Assembly (NCBI GenBank): GCA_041666865.1
Contig: JBAYGD010000003.1
Location: forward strand, 51,642 to 115,641
DNA from: Candidatus Omnitrophota bacterium
GTDB taxonomy: Bacteria > Omnitrophota > Omnitrophia > Omnitrophales > Aquincolibacteriaceae
Direction of reading: 5' to 3'
Length of the DNA: 64,000 nucleotides
Shown: positions 1 to 6,423 of the stretch, one piece after another
Layout of the letters: the number at the start of each line of letters is the position of its first letter
Position numbering within the stretch: the stretch's first letter is position 1
The notes under the pieces: generated by a model
What the model saw: only the letters and a program-made list of their open reading frames with translations
The model's database searches: none
What the model was told of the DNA's origin: nothing
Program-made: the position numbers and the translations under genes

Positions 1-343
1 GGCCCGCGGCAAAAGCCTCGCTGAACCGCTCGAACCCGCAGATCCGGATGTTGCGTTCAAGAAGCGCGCGTGTCGTCGCCGGAATCCGGAGCACCTCGGC
101 AAACATCCGGCCAAAATGGCCGTATTGTCGGCGCACCAGGGCCCAGCGTTCCTTCTCGCTCAGGTCCCCTCCAAGGGCCGCCTTAAGATCGGCATAGGCC
201 ACCGAGCGCCGGCTGTGCAGGTAAAAAGCTGCCCATCCGAGCAGGGAGCCCACCGCACCGGCAAGGCGCTCCGGCATCCATTGAAAAAACCGGGCGGCAA
301 GCTGCAGAGCCCCACAGCCGAGAACATCAAGAAGGCGTTTCAT
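1..343 (-). CDS. Lipid A biosynthesis acyltransferase (LpxL/HtrB lysophospholipid-acyltransferase family), 3' end beyond window start (partial)
   Basis: Not in ORF track (edge-truncated). Manual minus-strand translation from ATG 343..341 gives MKRLLDVLGCGALQLAARFFQWMPERLAGAVGSLLGWAAFYLHSRRSVAYADLKAALGGDLSEKERWALVRRQYGHFGRMFAEVLRIPATTRALLERNIRICGFERFSEAFAAG..., which fits the LpxL N-terminal architecture (hydrophobic anchor, then AYADL...E.ER motif region). Alternative in-frame ATGs at ~358 and ~373 lie inside the repeat. Confidence 0.55.
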   Translation of the reverse strand, partial: MKRLLDVLGCGALQLAARFFQWMPERLAGAVGSLLGWAAFYLHSRRSVAYADLKAALGGDLSEKERWALVRRQYGHFGRMFAEVLRIPATTRALLERNIRICGFERFSEAFAAG

Positions 344-1751
344 TCGGACAGTTTTCATCCGGACGGTTCTCATCCGAACAGTTCTCGTCCGGACGGTTCA
401 CATCCGGGAGGTTCACATCCGGACGGTTCTCATCCGGGAGGTTCTCATCTGGACGGTTTTCATCCGAACGGTTCTCATTCGGACGGTTTTCATTCGGACG
501 ATTTTCACGCGTCCGGTTTTCATTCGGACGGTTATCCCGCGACCGGTTCCCATTCGGACGGTTATCCCGCGACCGGTTCCCGTTCGGACGGTTATCCCGC
601 GACCGGTTCCCGTTCGGACGGTTATCCCGCGGGCGGTTCCCGTTCGGACGGTTATCCCGCGGGCGGTTATCATTCGGACGATCTTCACGCGGGCGGTTCT
701 CGCGCGGCAGTCCGCCGATCCAAGCGGTCAATTTAGAAATCAGGGCATCTTCGCCGGAGGAAATGCGCAGGCGCGTGGCCAAGATCAGCGGATTGAGGAT
801 TTCGGCGATTAACTTCGGGCTCCGGCAATAATCCTTTTCGGTGGTGATAATCTCATCGACCGAGGCCGACTCGCTGACACGCTTGATTTCCGTGAAGTCT
901 CCGGCCGTAAACGCGTGATGGTCGGGAAACTCGAAGTTCCGGACCGGCTTGATGCCGCAGTGGGACAAAAGCGCCTGAAAGGAGCGCGGCGTGCCGATGC
1001 CGGCAAAGGTCGTGACCCGCTGATTGCGCAGGCGGTCGATCATCACGCGCATTCTTTTTTTCGCCCGGTAGAAAAACAGGGGCTCCAGCAGGGCCTCCAC
1101 CAAAAGCGCTTTCGGGGCAGCCTTTGAGAGTTGGGCCCGAAGCCCCTCGAGCTGTTTGGCCTCGAGCAAGTTCGCATGGGTGATGACCACCACGTGGGCG
1201 CGATCCAGCAGCGTGAGGGGCTCGCGCAGGATTCCCCGGGGAATCAGCTTCCCGTTTCCGAAGGGGTTCAGGGCATTGAGGGTGATGATTTCCAAATCGC
1301 GACGGACCGGGAAATGCTGGAACCCGTCGTCCAGGACGGCCAAGCGGATGGGGGCTTGAGCAGCCATGCGAAGCGCCACCTCGGCCCGGTTCGCTCCGAC
1401 TCCGAAAAGGGCCCTGGGAAGCTGACGCTTCATTTGTTCGATTTCATCGTGACAGTAGCCGCGCGTCAGCACAAGGGGCGTCGCGCCGCGCTCGCCGGCT
1501 CGGCGGCACAAATACTCGACAAGCGGGGTTTTTCCCGTCCCTCCCCACGAAAGATTCCCGACGCTGATGACGGGAAACGGAAGCTTGGTTCTCTTGAGCT
1601 TGTCACGCTCATAAAGAGAGCGCCGCAACGCGGCGGCGGCTCCGTAAATCCACGCCGCCATTTCCAGGACGGGGCCCCAAAGCCTGGCCCCGAGGCCTCT
1701 CTCATTGCCTTCCGCTAGCCGCCGGAAATAATTTCTGATCGCATACCCCAT
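327..1751 (-). CDS. lpxK: Tetraacyldisaccharide 4'-kinase LpxK with ~140-aa C-terminal pentapeptide-repeat tail
   Basis: P-loop SVGNLSWGGTGKTPLVEYL and overall LpxK-like sequence. ORF is 474 aa against a typical ~330; C-terminus is (D/E)NRP(N/D) x ~25 encoded by the tandem repeat. Confidence 0.8.
   Translation of the reverse strand: MGYAIRNYFRRLAEGNERGLGARLWGPVLEMAAWIYGAAAALRRSLYERDKLKRTKLPFPVISVGNLSWGGTGKTPLVEYLCRRAGERGATPLVLTRGYCHDEIEQMKRQLPRALFGVGANRAEVALRMAAQAPIRLAVLDDGFQHFPVRRDLEIITLNALNPFGNGKLIPRGILREPLTLLDRAHVVVITHANLLEAKQLEGLRAQLSKAAPKALLVEALLEPLFFYRAKKRMRVMIDRLRNQRVTTFAGIGTPRSFQALLSHCGIKPVRNFEFPDHHAFTAGDFTEIKRVSESASVDEIITTEKDYCRSPKLIAEILNPLILATRLRISSGEDALISKLTAWIGGLPRENRPREDRPNDNRPRDNRPNGNRPRDNRPNGNRSRDNRPNGNRSRDNRPNGNRSRDNRPNENRTRENRPNENRPNENRSDENRPDENLPDENRPDVNLPDVNRPDENCSDENRPDENCPNETPS
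340..720. repeat. Tandem repeat, 15-bp unit (consensus CGGACGGTTCTCATC, ~25 copies), with five near-identical 30-bp super-units at 521-670
   Basis: Seen directly in the sequence. Period of 5 codons keeps all frames open: the plus frame reads HPDGS repeats, the lpxK frame reads ENRPD repeats. Confidence 0.9.
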
Positions 1752-3120
1752 GGTTTTTCATTTCCTCCGATGGTTGGTTCATGAAAGTCCCGAGCCAGTC
1801 CAGATGCCTGGGAGTCGCCCCCCGCAGGTTGACCACCGCGCGACAAGCGTTCGCCCCCATGGCGGACGCCGACGCCGGATCGCCGAGGAGCTCCTGCAGC
1901 GCCTCCTCAAGCTCCGGTTCACCTGCCACAAGCCTCCCCCCCCGGGACTCGCTGAGGGTTTGATAGATTTTCTCGAAATTAAAAACATGCGGCCCGTACA
2001 AAACCGGGCACCCGACAGACGCAGGCTCAATGGGATTTTGCCCGCCGTGCCGGACCCAGCTGCCTCCCAAAAAGGCAGCGGCCGCCACCGCATACATTTT
2101 GTTCAAAAGACCCATCGCATCCAAAATCAGGACGTCGAATTCGGCGCGCCCGTCCGTTTCGCTCGCGAGGCGTACGCTCAATCCCGCCTGGGTCAGCAAA
2201 CCCCGCACCTGAGGCGTCCGTTCGACGTGCCGCGGCGCCAGGACCCACTTGAGCGCGAGCCCGCGCCGGCGCAGAGCGAGAAAAACTCGCGCCAATTTTT
2301 CTTCCTCCCCAGGGTGCGTGCTCCCGGAAATCCAGATCTTGTCCTGCGGCCCAAAGCCGTACTGCCCGCGCAGCGCGCGGCGCTCTCCGTCGCTCACGCC
2401 TTCAAAAGAAGCGTTGTCGAATTTCATGTTCCCCAAAACCCGGATGTTTCCGCGTGCCGCACCCATGCCGTCAAAGCGCCCGGCATCTTCTTCGGTCTGG
2501 GCGAGCACAAAAGCAAGCGCCTTAAAGACCGGCCCGAGCAGGAACCTCAGCAGGCGGTAGCGCCGGAACGCGCGGGGCGAAAGACGCGCGTTGACAATGC
2601 CGATCGGGGTCCCTCGGCGAACGCCTTCCAGGACCAAGTTCGGCCAAATTTCGGTTTCCACCAGGAGAATCGCCTGCGGGCGGATCGTTGCAAAAAACCT
2701 TCTAACGGCAAATGAAAAATCGAAGGGGTAGTACCCCACCAGCACCCGATCCCCCGCCAGGGTCTGGGCCACCTTTTGCCCCGTGCCCGTCACCGTCGTC
2801 AGCACAATGGAATGAGACGGAAACCGGGCAAGGAATTCCTCGACGAACTTGCGGACGGCCATCACCTCGCCGACGCTGACGGCGTGGATCCAGACCGTCT
2901 TTTTGCCGTGAAGCCGCGCCGGCCAGTTTTCAGGAAGCTTCCCGAAGCGTTCCCTCATCAGCCGTGCGGGATCTTCGGCCTGCCGGATCTTGACGCGGAA
3001 AACGGGAAGGTACGCCAGGGAGAACAGGAAGAAAACCGCGTTGAAAAACCACCGGGCGGCCGCGTCCGCCACCCGGCTTCCGTAGACGGCGGGCTCAGGC
3101 CCTTGGATGCGCTGCATCAT
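1702..3120 (-). CDS. waaA: 3-deoxy-D-manno-octulosonic acid (Kdo) transferase
   Basis: 472 aa; N-terminal TM helix, HAVSVGEV motif, glycosyltransferase family 30 architecture; overlaps lpxK start. Confidence 0.8.
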   Translation of the reverse strand: MMQRIQGPEPAVYGSRVADAAARWFFNAVFFLFSLAYLPVFRVKIRQAEDPARLMRERFGKLPENWPARLHGKKTVWIHAVSVGEVMAVRKFVEEFLARFPSHSIVLTTVTGTGQKVAQTLAGDRVLVGYYPFDFSFAVRRFFATIRPQAILLVETEIWPNLVLEGVRRGTPIGIVNARLSPRAFRRYRLLRFLLGPVFKALAFVLAQTEEDAGRFDGMGAARGNIRVLGNMKFDNASFEGVSDGERRALRGQYGFGPQDKIWISGSTHPGEEEKLARVFLALRRRGLALKWVLAPRHVERTPQVRGLLTQAGLSVRLASETDGRAEFDVLILDAMGLLNKMYAVAAAAFLGGSWVRHGGQNPIEPASVGCPVLYGPHVFNFEKIYQTLSESRGGRLVAGEPELEEALQELLGDPASASAMGANACRAVVNLRGATPRHLDWLGTFMNQPSEEMKNHGVCDQKLFPAASGRQ

Positions 3121-3973
3121 AGGCCTCCTTGAGCCGTTTGGTTGTCACGTGCGTGTAGATCTGCGTCGTCGACAGGTTCTCATGGCCCAGGAGTTCCTGG
3201 ACGCTCCTCAAATCGGCGCCACGGTCCAGCATGTGGGTCGCAAACGAGTGCCTCAGCATATGAGGAGAAACTTCCTTACCGAGGCCGATGCGCTTCGAAT
3301 ATTTCAGAATCATGCGCCGTACGCTCCGGTCCGTCAGCCGGCCGCCGCGGCGGTTGACGAAAAGCGGTTTTTTGAGCGCGCCGTTTTCGTCGCGCGGCGG
3401 CTTCGTCTCGAGGTATTGCGCGATCGCCTGCAAAGCCACGCCGCCCATCGGCACGATCCGCTCCTTTTTGCCCTTGCCGCGCACTCTCACCAGGCCGCTG
3501 AAAACATCCAGGTCGTCGTGATTCAAGCCCACCAACTCGCTCACCCGAAGACCCGAGCTGTAGAGGGTCTCGAGAATCGCTTTGTCCCGCTTTTCCTTCC
3601 AGTTCTGTTTCGAGGGGGCCTCGAGCAGGCTCGTCACTTCATTCAAGTCAAGAAACCGCGGCAGGCGCTTGTCCCGCTTGGGGCTTGCGATATGCGCCGC
3701 GGGGCTGGCCTTGAGAACATTCTCGCGCACCAGGTATTTGAAAAAGGACCGCAGGCAGGCCAGCTTCCTGGAAATCGAGCTTTTGGAGTAGGCGCGCTCT
3801 TTGAGGACGGCCAAAAACGCTCGAATGTCGAGCGGGCCGATCTCGGCCACCTCTTTGGCCCCGAGCGTCTCGCAGAATTCCCTCAGATCAACGTGGTAAT
3901 TCTTCGTGGTGTGGCCCGATGCTTCTTTCTCGGCTGAAAGAAACTCCAGAAAGGCCTTGATCCATTTATCCAT
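3095..3973 (-). CDS. Tyrosine site-specific recombinase, XerC/XerD family
   Basis: 292 aa; N-terminal SAM-like domain and C-terminal catalytic region with R...HxxR...Y (LRHSFATHML...TQIYTHV). Confidence 0.8.
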   Translation of the reverse strand: MDKWIKAFLEFLSAEKEASGHTTKNYHVDLREFCETLGAKEVAEIGPLDIRAFLAVLKERAYSKSSISRKLACLRSFFKYLVRENVLKASPAAHIASPKRDKRLPRFLDLNEVTSLLEAPSKQNWKEKRDKAILETLYSSGLRVSELVGLNHDDLDVFSGLVRVRGKGKKERIVPMGGVALQAIAQYLETKPPRDENGALKKPLFVNRRGGRLTDRSVRRMILKYSKRIGLGKEVSPHMLRHSFATHMLDRGADLRSVQELLGHENLSTTQIYTHVTTKRLKEAYDAAHPRA

Positions 3974-6423
3974 TAGGGCCCTAACGTTTCACGGTCCGCT
4001 TCCGAGATCTTGTCGTCGTCCCCGAGCTCGTCTTCTGTCTTCGGAAGGCGGTTCACCAAATAAGTGCACTTAGGATATTTGGAGCAACCGTAAAACGTCC
4101 TTCGCTTTTTAGACATCCGTTTGACCAGTTCCCCCCCGCATCCGGGTTCCGGGCAGAAATGCCCGGTGGGAATCGAACGCGTAAATTTGCAATCCGGAAA
4201 TCCCGTACAGGCCATGAATTTCCCGAAGCGCCCCCACTTCATCACGAGCGGCTTCGCGCAAACGTCGCAGACATAGTCGGTGGGGGTCACTTCCCTGCGT
4301 ATGTTTTGCATCTCGTTTTTGGCGGCCTGAATATCGGCCTCGAACGGGCCGTAAAAAGTCTTGAGGACGCTCGTCCACTCCACCTGGCCGTCCTCGATTT
4401 TGTCGAGCTCCTCTTCCATCTCGGCCGTAAAAAAAACGTCGACAATTCTCGGAAAATGCTTGATCAAAAGCACGGCCACGATCTCGCCGAGCTCGGTGGG
4501 CATGAGGGCGCTTCCCTTGCGGCCGACGTAATCGCGGCTAAGCAGGGTATAGATTGTCGGGGCATACGTGCTCGGCCGGCCGATCCCCCTCTCTTCGAGG
4601 ATCTTGACGAGGCTGGCATCATTGTAGCGGCTCGGCGGCTTCGTAAAATGCTGATACCCCATGAGCTCATGCAGTTTCAGGATTTCTCCCTCCGAAAGGT
4701 TCGGGAGTTCACCGGGGGTGGCTTCCTCCTCGGCCTCCGACCCCTTGAGCGCGTCTTTGCCGTTTTCCGGCCCCTCGGCCGCAAGCTCCTCTTTGGCCGG
4801 CACCATCAGAATGTCGAATCCCGGAAAAAGGTTGCGCCGTCCCGAAGACCTAAAGTGGTAGCGGTCTCCGGCGGCAATCGCGACGGAGATCTGTTCGTCG
4901 ACGGCCGGAACCATCTGGCTGCCGAGAAACTTCCTCCAGATCAGATCATAAAGTTTGTATTCATCCTCTTCGAGCGCGTAGCGAATCGACTCCGGGTCGC
5001 GCCGGGCCGAAGTCGGACGGACCGCTTCGTGCGCCTCTTGCGCGCCTTTTTTAGATTTGTACACGGGAGGCTTCTCCGGAAGATATTCGGGGCCGAATTT
5101 GGCGCGGATGAACTCGGCCGCTTCGGCTTGCGCGGAAACCGCCACATGGACGGAGTCCGTTCTCATGTAACTGATCAAACCGACGCTCCCTTCTTCGCGC
5201 AGCTCCACCCCTTCGTAGAGCCTCTGGGCAATTTTCATCGTTTTCGCCGCGGGAAAACGCAGGCGGTTAAAGGCCTCCTGCTGGAGCTTGCTGGTCGTAA
5301 AGGGGGGCTGAGTTTTTCGGACGCGCTCTTTGCGCTCAACGCGCTCGACGCGAAAAGGCAGGCTCAGAATTTCCTGCCGTGCCGCTTCCGTGACGTCGCG
5401 GACCTTCAGGTCGGCCTTTTCATCGCCGATCCGGTCCAGCTTCGTCAAAAAAATCTTCCCTTCGTTTTCCGGCTTCTCGGAAGCAACTTTCGCCTCCAAC
5501 GTCCAGTACTCGACCGCCGTGAAGTCGCGGATCTCCTGCTCGCGCTCGACGATCAGACGCAGGGCCACCGACTGGACGCGCCCCGCACTAAGGCCTCGGC
5601 CGACTTTGCGCCACAAAAGAGGGCTTAATTCATAGCCTACGATACGGTCGAGAATCCTCCGGGCCTGCTGCGCGTCCACCAGGTTTTTCGCGATTTCGCG
5701 GGGGTGATGAAAAGCCTCCTGAATGGCCTCTTTTGTGATTTCGTTGAAAACGACACGCTGGATTGCAGCCTCCGGATTTTCGATGCCGAAGATGTACGCC
5801 AGGTGCCAGCTGATCGCCTCTCCTTCGCGGTCCGGGTCGGCAGCGAGGTAGATGTGGGTTTTTCCCTTCGCCTGCGCCTTGAGGTGCTTGACCGTCTTGG
5901 AGGCTTTCCGGATGATGATGTACTCGGGCTCGAAGTTGTTCTGGATATTGACCCCCATTTTACTTCTCGGGAGGTCCCGGACGTGCCCCATGGAAGCCTC
6001 GACCTGATAGTCCTGGCCGAGGAATTTATTGATCGTCTTGGCCTTGGCCGGCGATTCGACAATCACCAGATTTGCAGGCCCCCCGGACACCTTGGATTTT
6101 TTTGGGGACGATTTCTTTTTCGGGGCCCCTGCGGATTTTTTACGGGGCGGCTTTTCGACGGTAGGCGGCTCTTCGGCAGCAGACGGTCCTTCGGCGGCAG
6201 GCGGCTCTTCCGGGTCCGGCCTCCCGCCACCGACAAAATGCACGATTTCGATCCGGTCCCCTTCGGTCAACGGGCAGTGCTCCAGCTTTTCCCTTGGAAT
6301 CACAGCCTGGTTATGCTCCACCACAACCGTCTCCGGATCGACATCAAGGCGGCGAAGAAGCTCCCGCAGGGTGGCCGCTGAGTTGATTTCCTGTTTTTCC
6401 CCGTTAATGTATAAGTTCATCAT
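3973..6423 (-). CDS. topA: DNA topoisomerase I (type IA) with in-frame N-terminal ThiS/MoaD-like domain and K/P-rich linker
   Basis: IVESPAKAKTI and MGHVRDLP Toprim motifs, catalytic Tyr region, C-terminal Zn-ribbon Cys clusters. Residues 1-67 (MMNLYINGEKQ...IEIVHFVGGG) look like ThiS. Confidence 0.85.
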   Translation of the reverse strand: MMNLYINGEKQEINSAATLRELLRRLDVDPETVVVEHNQAVIPREKLEHCPLTEGDRIEIVHFVGGGRPDPEEPPAAEGPSAAEEPPTVEKPPRKKSAGAPKKKSSPKKSKVSGGPANLVIVESPAKAKTINKFLGQDYQVEASMGHVRDLPRSKMGVNIQNNFEPEYIIIRKASKTVKHLKAQAKGKTHIYLAADPDREGEAISWHLAYIFGIENPEAAIQRVVFNEITKEAIQEAFHHPREIAKNLVDAQQARRILDRIVGYELSPLLWRKVGRGLSAGRVQSVALRLIVEREQEIRDFTAVEYWTLEAKVASEKPENEGKIFLTKLDRIGDEKADLKVRDVTEAARQEILSLPFRVERVERKERVRKTQPPFTTSKLQQEAFNRLRFPAAKTMKIAQRLYEGVELREEGSVGLISYMRTDSVHVAVSAQAEAAEFIRAKFGPEYLPEKPPVYKSKKGAQEAHEAVRPTSARRDPESIRYALEEDEYKLYDLIWRKFLGSQMVPAVDEQISVAIAAGDRYHFRSSGRRNLFPGFDILMVPAKEELAAEGPENGKDALKGSEAEEEATPGELPNLSEGEILKLHELMGYQHFTKPPSRYNDASLVKILEERGIGRPSTYAPTIYTLLSRDYVGRKGSALMPTELGEIVAVLLIKHFPRIVDVFFTAEMEEELDKIEDGQVEWTSVLKTFYGPFEADIQAAKNEMQNIRREVTPTDYVCDVCAKPLVMKWGRFGKFMACTGFPDCKFTRSIPTGHFCPEPGCGGELVKRMSKKRRTFYGCSKYPKCTYLVNRLPKTEDELGDDDKISEADRETLGP

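What the first reader, a model, noticed from the sequence alone, without database searches (positions are those of the whole stretch)
327..720. Recently expanded 15-/30-bp tandem repeat builds a pentapeptide-repeat tail on LpxK and engulfs the lpxL start
About 25 copies of a 15-bp unit (CGGACGGTTCTCATC and variants) occupy 340-720. The copies at 521-670 are five almost identical 30-bp super-units, which points to recent expansion or contraction. Because the period is exactly 5 codons, the array is open in the lpxK frame and extends LpxK from ~330 to 474 aa with (D/E)NRP(N/D) x ~25. The plus strand reads HPDGS repeats. The lpxL-family start codon (ATG 343) sits inside the last units, with alternative in-frame ATGs at ~358 and ~373. 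A hypermutable repeat fused to an essential lipid A kinase and overlapping the next lipid A acyltransferase is not a standard feature of lpxK. It could be a contingency/length-variable locus or a disordered cytoplasmic tail.
Basis: seen in the sequence. Interest (0 to 1): 0.55.

Follow-up and report, generated by a model that had tools for sequence, protein, structure and literature searches.

The report
Repeat-built disordered tail on LpxK
In one uncultured Omnitrophota bacterium, 24 in-frame copies of a 15-bp repeat sit just before the stop codon of the lipid A kinase gene lpxK, giving the enzyme a 120-residue floppy charged tail and moving the next gene's start away from its ribosome-binding site; the repeat is real, but it is most likely a tolerated lineage-specific oddity, not a new system.

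Summary
Window 342-701 (minus strand) holds 24 perfectly phased 15-bp units in the lpxK frame. A central block (522-671) consists of five 30-bp super-units that differ from their neighbours by 0-2 nt. LpxK is 474 aa, whereas 118 of the 120 best homologues are 341-360 aa. The nearest syntenic relatives (73% and 70% identity) lack the array. Removing exactly 360 nt restores their C-terminus (GGLPR|ETPS*) and the same 17-nt lpxK/lpxL overlap. The tail ([DEG]NR[PS][RND]) is not a Pfam pentapeptide-repeat domain, and AlphaFold predicts it to be unstructured. Its net charge is zero but segregated: the proximal half is +10 and the distal half is -10. Two different assemblies carry the same copy number. 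A third contig breaks exactly where a k=31 graph must branch. No word of 50 nt or more is repeated, so an assembly artefact is unlikely. No copy-number variant is on record, and a 15-bp period cannot switch the frame, so the contingency-locus idea is unsupported. One new point: relatives place lpxL's GGAGG ribosome-binding site in LpxK's Gly-Gly codons, 8 nt before the start. Here that site has decayed and lies about 360 nt upstream, so lpxL probably depends on ribosomes that read through the array. Interest is low to moderate.

The parts
327..1751 (-). lpxK coding sequence, 474 aa (NCBI MFA6599723.1, Candidatus Omnitrophota MAG)
   Evidence: ORF list; Pfam PF02606 E=4.7e-68 over aa 28-342; exact match in the protein collection
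726..1670 (-). LpxK catalytic domain (aa 28-342), confidently folded
   Evidence: Pfam; AlphaFold pLDDT above 90 up to about aa 345; A. aeolicus LpxK 4EHX is the only solved relative
342..701 (-). Array of 24 in-frame 15-bp units (5 codons each), encoding [DEG]NR[PST][RND]; LpxK aa 351-470
   Evidence: absent from syntenic relatives L002, L003 and L004
522..671 (-). Recently homogenised core: five 30-bp super-units (units 3-12, GNR[PS]R-DNRPN) differing from their neighbours by 0-2 nt
   Evidence: longest exact self-match is 49 nt at lag 30
507..701 (-). Basic half of the tail (units 1-13, summed charge +10)
   Evidence: Per-unit charges
342..506 (-). Acidic half of the tail (units 14-24, ENRP[DN] type, summed charge -10), with more diverged units
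327..341 (-). Ancestral lpxK 3' end (ETPS + TGA), overlapping the lpxL start by 17 nt as in relatives
1..343 (-). 5' part of lpxL-family acyltransferase gene (runs off the window; 648-658 aa LpxL+Elm1-like fusion on the full contig); start ATG 343-341 is homologous to the relatives' GTG
   Evidence: Pfam PF03279; gene tables; junction comparison
356..373 (-). Two extra in-frame ATGs (373-371, 358-356) that are repeat copies of the start-codon position; none of the three ATGs has a Shine-Dalgarno site
   Evidence: one pipeline called the start at 373
398..415 (-). Two TGA stops in the lpxL frame (415-413, 400-398), created by the GTG-AAC units. They close the lpxL frame across the rest of the array.
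711..716 (-). Decayed remnant (GGCGGA) of the GGAGG site that serves as the lpxL Shine-Dalgarno in relatives; it now lies about 365 nt upstream of the lpxL start

Best explanation
This is a lineage-specific, in-frame coding minisatellite. A 15-bp unit, later organised as a 30-bp super-unit, was amplified by replication slippage or unequal recombination between the last conserved residues of LpxK (..GGLPR) and its last four codons (ETPS-stop). Because the period is five codons and no indel has accumulated, any ribosome translating lpxK must read the array. It therefore makes a 120-residue, proline-punctuated, highly charged tail that is intrinsically disordered and attached to the cytoplasmic C-terminus of a normal LpxK kinase. 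The ancestral stop codon and the 17-nt overlap with lpxL survive at the distal end. However, the lpxL start is now about 360 nt from the Shine-Dalgarno site that relatives embed in LpxK's Gly-Gly codons, and that site has decayed. LpxL translation therefore most likely depends on ribosomes that finish lpxK and re-initiate 17 nt back. That dependence would select for keeping the array open in the lpxK frame, whether or not the peptide itself does anything. The tail itself is most likely tolerated rather than functional. Shown: the array, its frame, its absence in relatives, the predicted disorder and the loss of the SD. Inferred: the slippage mechanism, the translational coupling and the neutrality of the tail.
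For: The array anatomy and perfect 15-nt phasing are. There is no stop in the lpxK frame before 329-327. All 118 other close homologues are 341-372 aa. The syntenic relatives at 73% and 70% identity have no array, and deleting exactly 360 nt gives GGLPRETPS*, colinear with GGPQRESHS*, with the same 17-nt overlap. Variability among units follows codon position 3 > 1 > 2 in the lpxK frame (0.96, 0.64, 0.47 bits). Array codons are atypical for the genome (CGT 15/27 against 11%; GAT 14/15 against 38%), as expected for an amplified founder unit. AlphaFold gives pLDDT above 90 for the kinase and 36-52 with no secondary structure for aa 351-474. Two different assemblies (150,561-bp ENA MEGAHIT contig; 158,185-bp JGI/NCBI contig) encode the identical tail. 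A Logan contig from run SRR6484324 is identical to window 639-6058 and stops exactly at the first repeated 30-mer, 668-639. No word of 50 nt or more is repeated. For the SD: relatives have GGAGG 8 nt before the lpxL start (dG -10.9 and -9.5), while the window's three ATGs score -3.2 to -3.3 with no core motif. That value matches xerC, which is SD-less, overlaps the topA stop, and is conserved that way in the same operon. Other Omnitrophota LpxKs carry non-repetitive polar C-terminal extensions of 22 and 62 aa, so the C-terminus tolerates additions.
Against: Neutrality of the tail is not demonstrated. The clean charge segregation (+10 then -10), the invariant Asn-Arg core and the absence of any indel across units that are about 30% diverged could reflect selection on the peptide. 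Counts of synonymous and non-synonymous variants (6/12) do not separate the lpxK frame from one antisense frame. Codon-usage scoring does not favour the lpxK frame over one antisense frame either. The founder unit could not be traced to the junction sequence: best matches were 10/15, within the null range of 8-12. Translational coupling is inferred from geometry only, and the anti-SD sequence used was a generic assumption. It is unknown whether the assemblies come from independent samples.
Confidence: 0.7

Rival explanations
1. The tail is a selected functional module. It would be a block-polyampholyte disordered arm on LpxK, Arg-rich next to the enzyme and acidic at the tip. It could tether LpxK to anionic membrane or lipid A intermediates, recruit the neighbouring late lipid A enzymes, or auto-regulate the kinase.
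For: The charge segregation is +10/-10 with net zero and 45% charged residues. N at unit position 2 occurs in 23 of 24 units and R at position 3 in 20 of 24. There are no indels, and variability follows codon position 3 > 1 > 2. Other Omnitrophota LpxKs have independent N/R/Q/P-rich C-terminal extensions.
Against: The tail is found in only one lineage among about 15 billion proteins. The nearest relatives function without it. The central units are nearly identical at the DNA level, so their conservation reflects recency, not selection. The two charge blocks coincide with two unit subfamilies, which stepwise amplification would produce on its own. The codon usage has not adapted to the genome.
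Confidence: 0.15
2. This is a length-variable (contingency-like) locus. Frequent gain and loss of units would change tail length, or the distance ribosomes travel before reaching lpxL, and so tune LpxK/LpxL activity within the population.
For: The central block has near-identical 30-bp units with a 49-nt exact self-match, which is a substrate for slippage. The array strand folds slightly better than shuffles (z -1.96 as RNA, -1.82 as DNA, against +0.44 for the control).
Against: The 15-nt period cannot switch the frame on and off. Every record that spans the array has the same 24 units. The Logan contig break is fully explained by k=31 graph branching on the same sequence. No variant-length protein is in the 90% cluster. 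The folding signal is marginal: 4-5 of 100 shuffles fold equally well.
Confidence: 0.07
3. This is an assembly artefact: the array, or its copy number, was created by mis-assembly of short reads.
For: Tandem repeats are a known source of assembly error (PMC6868369, title and abstract seen). One small-k assembly breaks inside the array.
Against: No word of 50 nt or more is repeated, so k=141 MEGAHIT paths and 100-150-nt reads resolve it uniquely. 18 distinct unit variants in perfect frame are not what collapse or expansion errors produce. The Logan contig independently reproduces units 1-5 with 0 mismatches.
Confidence: 0.04
4. The plus-strand ORF 116..736 (206 aa, HPDGS-like repeats) is the real gene, and the repeat serves that protein.
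For: The ORF is open, and all three plus-strand frames lack stops across the array.
Against: The ORF lies antisense to the conserved lpxL N-terminus and the lpxK 3' end. None of the pipelines called it. Its third codon positions fall on the least variable columns of the repeat. It has no significant Pfam match (PMG at 16.9 bits against a cut-off of 29). Relatives have no room for it.
Confidence: 0.02

Closest known systems
In-frame intragenic tandem repeats (coding minisatellites/VNTRs) and low-complexity regions of prokaryotic proteins (background: PMC2996958, PMC6821194, abstracts seen)
   Same: Head-to-tail DNA units whose length is a multiple of three, translated as a periodic low-complexity peptide. 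The array is lineage-specific, with a homogenised core and degenerate edges.
   Different: From my own knowledge, such arrays are mostly described in surface or secreted proteins. Here the array sits on the cytoplasmic C-terminus of an essential lipid A enzyme and inside an overlapping gene junction, where it duplicates the downstream gene's start codon and strands it from its SD. Length polymorphism has not been shown.
Canonical LpxK (tetraacyldisaccharide 4'-kinase; A. aeolicus structure 4EHX)
   Same: Full Pfam LpxK domain, P-loop GGTGKTP, a confident AlphaFold model of the kinase domain (not compared by fold search), and waaA-lpxK-lpxL synteny.
   Different: It has 120 extra C-terminal residues. 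118 of the 120 nearest homologues are 341-360 aa, and the solved protein is 315 aa.
Pentapeptide repeat protein family (Pfam PF00805 and relatives; Qnr, MfpA; A[D/N]LXX; right-handed quadrilateral beta-helix; family definition from my own knowledge)
   Same: The period is five residues.
   Different: There is no Pfam match even at E<=10. The central position is Arg or Pro rather than Leu or Phe. The region is predicted to be unstructured, not a beta-helix.
Phase-variable contingency loci driven by simple-sequence repeats (Neisseria and Haemophilus type; my own knowledge)
   Same: A slippage-prone repeat sits inside a cell-envelope biosynthesis gene cluster.
   Different: The unit is 15 nt, so copy changes keep the frame and give no on/off switch. 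The units are diverged, and no variation has been observed.
Unrelated proteins with N[RKQL]Pxx pentapeptide arrays (P0121 NRPEV x~45, P0136 NRP[ND][VE], P0142 NRPSY, P0264 NRPRG; L013 Lachnospiraceae DENYS/DENCS)
   Same: Very similar peptide periodicity and composition. P0136 contains ENRPD, VNRPN and DNRPD units.
   Different: The host proteins and organisms differ, and none of the eight that were read is an LpxK. These are best read as convergent low-complexity arrays, not homologues.
Translationally coupled overlapping genes (termination-reinitiation; my own knowledge)
   Same: The lpxK stop lies 17 nt downstream of the lpxL start, conserved in relatives. The overlapping topA/xerC pair in the same operon also lacks an SD.
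   Different: In relatives the overlap is backed by a strong GGAGG. Here the array has removed that support, so coupling would be obligatory and would pass through 360 nt of repeat.

Membership tests
LpxK (PF02606) | Match to the family profile above the curated cut-off | tested here: met
   230.1 bits against a cut-off of 27, aa 28-342, profile positions 4-324 of 328
LpxK (PF02606) | P-loop nucleotide-binding motif and conserved catalytic-core residues | tested here: met
   G70 G71 G73 K74 T75 P76 and D141 D142 G143 Q145 are invariant in the 8- and 50-sequence alignments. Their catalytic role is from my own knowledge.
LpxK (PF02606) | Usual length and architecture (single domain, about 315-360 aa) | tested here: not met
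   474 aa. Homologues are 341-372 aa and the PDB chain is 315 aa. The extra 120 aa are the array.
Pentapeptide repeat family (PF00805 and related Pfam models) | Profile match | tested here: not met
   The tail alone at E<=10 matches only Extensin_1, at 17.3 bits against a cut-off of 105. The whole protein matches only LpxK.
Pentapeptide repeat family (PF00805 and related Pfam models) | Hydrophobic central residue (A[D/N]LXX) and beta-helical fold | tested here: not met
   Units are [DEG]-N-R-[PST]-[RND]. AlphaFold gives pLDDT 36-52 and no strands for aa 351-474.
Coding minisatellite / in-frame VNTR | Head-to-tail copies with a period that is a multiple of 3, open in the host gene's frame | tested here: met
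   24 x 15 nt, no indel, no stop in the lpxK frame
Coding minisatellite / in-frame VNTR | Insertion relative to orthologues | tested here: met
   Absent in the syntenic loci L002, L003 and L004 and in more distant Omnitrophota. Deleting 360 nt restores colinearity.
Coding minisatellite / in-frame VNTR | Copy-number polymorphism between strains or within populations | tested here: inconclusive
   Only two full-length records exist and both have 24 units. No reads are available. Scans of the metagenome and genome collections found no further copy of this locus.
Phase-variable contingency locus | A change in copy number switches the reading frame or promoter spacing on and off | tested here: not met
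   The unit is 15 nt (five codons), so gain or loss of units keeps both the lpxK frame and the distal stop/start overlap.
Translational coupling (lpxK to lpxL) | Stop of the upstream gene overlaps or abuts the start of the downstream gene | tested here: met
   There is a 17-nt overlap in the window and in L002 and L004, and ATGA/GTGA overlaps in L009 and L010.
Translational coupling (lpxK to lpxL) | Downstream translation depends on upstream translation | not testable with these tools
   The only evidence is indirect: no SD before ATG 343, 358 or 373 (dG -3.2 to -3.3) against -9.5 and -10.9 in relatives.

The most novel reading that the evidence does not exclude
The array is not passive. It would be a translated spacer that makes LpxL synthesis strictly dependent on completed LpxK translation, so that array length and the Arg/Pro-rich codon run set the LpxK:LpxL ratio. 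In addition, or instead, the charge-segregated disordered tail would act as a tether that organises the late lipid A enzymes at the membrane. That would be a repeat-encoded regulatory or scaffolding device on an essential envelope pathway.
Probability: 0.1. Interest if true: 0.5.

Novelty: new member of a known kind. Interest (0 to 1): 0.25.

Why it matters
The finding shows that the C-terminus of an essential lipid A kinase can carry a 120-residue repeat-built disordered extension. It is also a clean natural example of a tandem expansion born inside an overlapping gene junction. The expansion copied the downstream gene's start codon many times, the extra copies were silenced by two in-frame stops, and the real start was stranded without its ribosome-binding site. 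It therefore works as a small natural experiment on translational coupling and on how low-complexity tails arise in bacteria. On the practical side, it shows annotators that the 474-aa LpxK and the choice of lpxL start (343, not 373) are real features and not errors. Nothing here points to a new biochemical system.

Tried and rejected
1. The 444-aa protein P0001 first looked like a shorter-array variant. The alignment showed that the 30-aa difference is a later N-terminal start call and that the tail is identical. Its contig could not be retrieved.
2. Scans of the metagenome and genome collections for strain variants found no other copy of this locus. They returned only distant LpxKs and unrelated repeat proteins.
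3. I looked up the neighbouring WaaA and XerC proteins by exact sequence to catch contigs with other copy numbers. This found two more contigs of the same strain (L016, L018), but neither spans the array.
4. I tested whether the unit originated from the junction sequence. The best matches were 10/15, within the null range of 8-12, so this is not supported.
5. I tested for selection on the peptide with synonymous/non-synonymous counts and codon-usage likelihood in all six frames. Neither is decisive, because one antisense frame scores as well.
6. I tested RNA and DNA secondary structure of the array. The z-scores were -1.96 and -1.82, with 4-5 of 100 shuffles folding equally well, so the signal is too weak to build on.
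7. Rfam gave no match at E<=1 over window 1-2000.
8. The plus-strand HPDGS ORF was rejected as a gene (see the rival explanations).
9. A literature search for LpxK together with tandem repeats found nothing relevant.
Full report
OBSERVATION. Tandem Repeats Finder reports a period-15 array at 340-680 (22.7 copies, score 222), with 60- and 90-bp super-periods over 480-699. No other array in the 64-kb window scores above 81. Read on the minus strand in the frame of the 327..1751 ORF, the region 342-701 divides into 24 units of exactly 15 nt with no indel. Unit positions 1 (G), 5 (A) and 11 (C) are invariant in all 24 units, and 18 of the units are distinct. A 25th block (327-341) encodes ETPS and the stop codon and is not a repeat unit: its in-register identity to the units is at most 7/15. 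The 19 nt at 702-720 are not repeat either. Identity between units is 0.86 at lag 2 and 0.68 at lag 1, so the working period is 30 bp. The super-units made of units 3-12 (522-671) differ from their neighbours by 2, 2, 1 and 0 nt. The consensus 15-mer with up to 3 mismatches occurs 13 times in the window, against 3.2 +/- 1.6 in shuffles, and 11 of those lie in the array.

GENES. The ORF 327..1751(-) is 474 aa, and Pfam LpxK covers aa 28-342 (230 bits). Upstream lie waaA and xerC. Downstream, running off the window's left end, is an LpxL-family acyltransferase (PF03279). On the full contig that acyltransferase is a 658-aa fusion with an Elm1-like domain. The exact protein is NCBI MFA6599723.1, 'MAG: tetraacyldisaccharide 4'-kinase [Candidatus Omnitrophota bacterium]'. 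The lpxL start homologous to the relatives' start is ATG 343-341, 17 nt upstream of the lpxK stop (329-327). ATGs at 358 and 373 are in the same frame, and one pipeline called the start at 373.

COMPARATIVE EVIDENCE. Among the 120 best LpxK homologues, 118 are 341-360 aa and one is 372 aa. The only long one (P0001, 444 aa) is this same protein with a later start call and an identical tail. The nearest distinct relatives (P0002 at 73% identity and 350 aa; P0003 at 70% and 354 aa) sit in the same gene order: topA-xerC-waaA-lpxK-lpxL/Elm1-GT4/GT9. Their lpxK genes end ..GGPQRESHS* and ..GGAWRAGNP*, and lpxL begins at a GTG 17 nt before the stop. Deleting exactly the 24 units from the window gives ..GGLPRETPS*, with the same 17-nt overlap. 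The array is therefore an insertion upstream of a conserved stop codon.

IS IT REAL? Two assemblies of different contig length (ENA MEGAHIT k141 contig, 150,561 bp; JGI/NCBI contig, 158,185 bp) encode the identical tail. A Logan contig from run SRR6484324 matches window 639-6058 with 0 mismatches and ends at 639. Reading along the gene, the first repeated 30-mer spans 668-639, which is exactly where a k=31 graph must branch. No word of 50 nt or more is repeated anywhere in the region, and the longest exact self-match is 49 nt. Ordinary reads and large-k assemblers therefore resolve the copy number. I cannot tell whether these data sets are independent samples. No record with a different copy number exists in the collections I could query.

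THE PEPTIDE. The units read [DEG]-N-R-[PST]-[RND]. The composition is N32 R27 P18 D15 E12 out of 120 residues, and the net charge is 0. Units 1-13 sum to +10 and units 14-24 sum to -10 (an earlier notebook entry of mine said +12, which was an arithmetic slip). AlphaFold, run with a 50-sequence alignment, models the kinase at pLDDT above 90 up to about aa 345. It gives aa 351-474 a pLDDT of 36-52 with no secondary structure. The tail alone matches no Pfam pentapeptide-repeat model even at E<=10; the only hit is Extensin_1 at 17 bits against a cut-off of 105. The only solved relative is the 315-aa A. aeolicus LpxK. A search of 1.84 billion representative proteins with the tail gave 291 hits at E<=1e-3. 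The eight I read are unrelated proteins with their own N[RKQL]Pxx arrays (NRPEV, NRPSY, NRPRG, NKPEQ, and NRP[ND][VE] in P0136), and none is an LpxK. A Lachnospiraceae ORF has DENYS/DENCS repeats built from a 15-bp unit. I read these as convergent low-complexity arrays.

WHICH FRAME MATTERS? Because lpxK has no stop before 329-327, its ribosomes must translate the array. Variability among units is ordered codon position 3 > 1 > 2 in that frame (0.96, 0.64, 0.47 bits), which is the pattern expected of a coding frame. The plus-strand ORF 116..736 has its third positions on the least variable columns. Counts of synonymous and non-synonymous variants (6/12) and codon-usage likelihood do not discriminate cleanly between frames. 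The array uses codons that are minor in this genome (CGT 15/27 against 11%; GAT 14/15 against 38%). That fits amplification of a founder unit better than long adaptation.

CONSEQUENCE FOR lpxL. In relatives the lpxL Shine-Dalgarno is GGAG(G), formed by LpxK's conserved C-terminal Gly codons 8-10 nt before the start. With a generic anti-SD sequence, which is my assumption, the duplex energies are -10.9 and -9.5 kcal/mol. In the window the equivalent site reads GGCGGA (716-711) and lies about 365 nt upstream of the start. The three candidate ATGs score -3.2 to -3.3 and have no core motif. That value equals the one for xerC, whose start overlaps the topA stop and lacks an SD in all three genomes. 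SD-less re-initiation therefore appears to be used in this operon. In the lpxL frame the array carries many ATG/GTG codons, which are copies of the start position. Two TGA codons (415-413 and 400-398) close that frame, so only the last three ATGs can yield LpxL. I infer that LpxL now depends on ribosomes that read lpxK through the array and re-initiate. This would also explain why no frame-breaking indel is tolerated: the third minus-strand frame has 17 stops, and the lpxL frame stops 70 nt before ATG 343.

MECHANISM AND ALTERNATIVES. The best-supported reading is a lineage-specific in-frame minisatellite, expanded by slippage or unequal recombination, with a young homogenised core and older diverged edges. 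It is tolerated because it adds only a disordered cytoplasmic tail and preserves the distal stop/start overlap. Other Omnitrophota LpxKs carry non-repetitive polar C-terminal extensions (22 aa in P0087, 62 aa in L011), which shows that the C-terminus accepts additions. A functional charge-block tail cannot be excluded. The contingency-locus reading lacks support: the period is a multiple of three and no variant has been seen. The folding of the array strand is only marginally unusual (z about -1.9). Rfam finds nothing. I could not show that the unit derives from the junction sequence. A literature search found no report of repeats in LpxK. General background on intragenic repeats, prokaryotic low-complexity regions and repeat-driven assembly errors is in PMC2996958, PMC6821194 and PMC6868369 (abstracts only).

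VERDICT. The feature is real and was accurately observed. It is a new instance of a known kind of event, a coding tandem repeat that creates a disordered tail, sitting in an unusual place: an essential lipid A kinase and an overlapping gene junction. It has one instructive side effect, the loss of lpxL's ribosome-binding site. Interest is low to moderate (0.25).

Noticed in passing
window 1-343 (-) and L001 7379-9355: The gene after lpxK is a 648-658-aa fusion of a lipid A acyltransferase domain (PF03279) with a Mito_fiss_Elm1-like domain (PF06258). The fusion is conserved in the 70-73% identical relatives.
   Followed up: partly
L001 9352-13425 (beyond the window's left end): The next genes are a 704-aa GT4 + GT9 (heptosyltransferase-like) fusion and a further 680-aa GT9 protein. 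They form a conserved envelope-glycolipid operon with waaA, lpxK and lpxL.
   Followed up: no
window ~3973-6423 (-); L001 1329-3779: The 816-824-aa topoisomerase I carries a precomputed ThiS/MoaD-like (PF02597) hit, listed ahead of the Toprim domain, in all three related genomes.
   Followed up: no
window ~3973 (-); L017 6001: The xerC start overlaps the topA stop and has no Shine-Dalgarno (dG -3.0). The arrangement is identical in both relatives, which suggests routine SD-less translational coupling in this operon.
   Followed up: partly
L013 2545-3222 (Lachnospiraceae MAG CANQMR010000018.1): A 225-aa ORF has about 9 DENYS/DENCS/DENYP pentapeptide units from a 15-bp repeat (CTCCGATGAAAACTA, TRF score 178). 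Both the peptide and the DNA core (GATGAAAAC) resemble the distal units of the window array. The resemblance is presumably convergent.
   Followed up: partly
L007 1831-3549 (human gut metagenome): A 572-aa protein carries an internal run of CSDGN/CSDEN/CSDGI pentapeptide repeats. It is another unrelated 15-bp-period coding array.
   Followed up: no
L011 ~4030-4221: A 48%-identical Omnitrophota LpxK has a 62-aa non-repetitive N/R/Q/P-rich C-terminal extension, and P0087 has a 22-aa one. Polar tails on LpxK recur in this phylum.
   Followed up: partly
window 6146-6210: A short 18-bp-period tandem repeat (3.6 copies, TRF score 81) lies inside the topA coding region. It is the second-best array in the window.
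   Followed up: no
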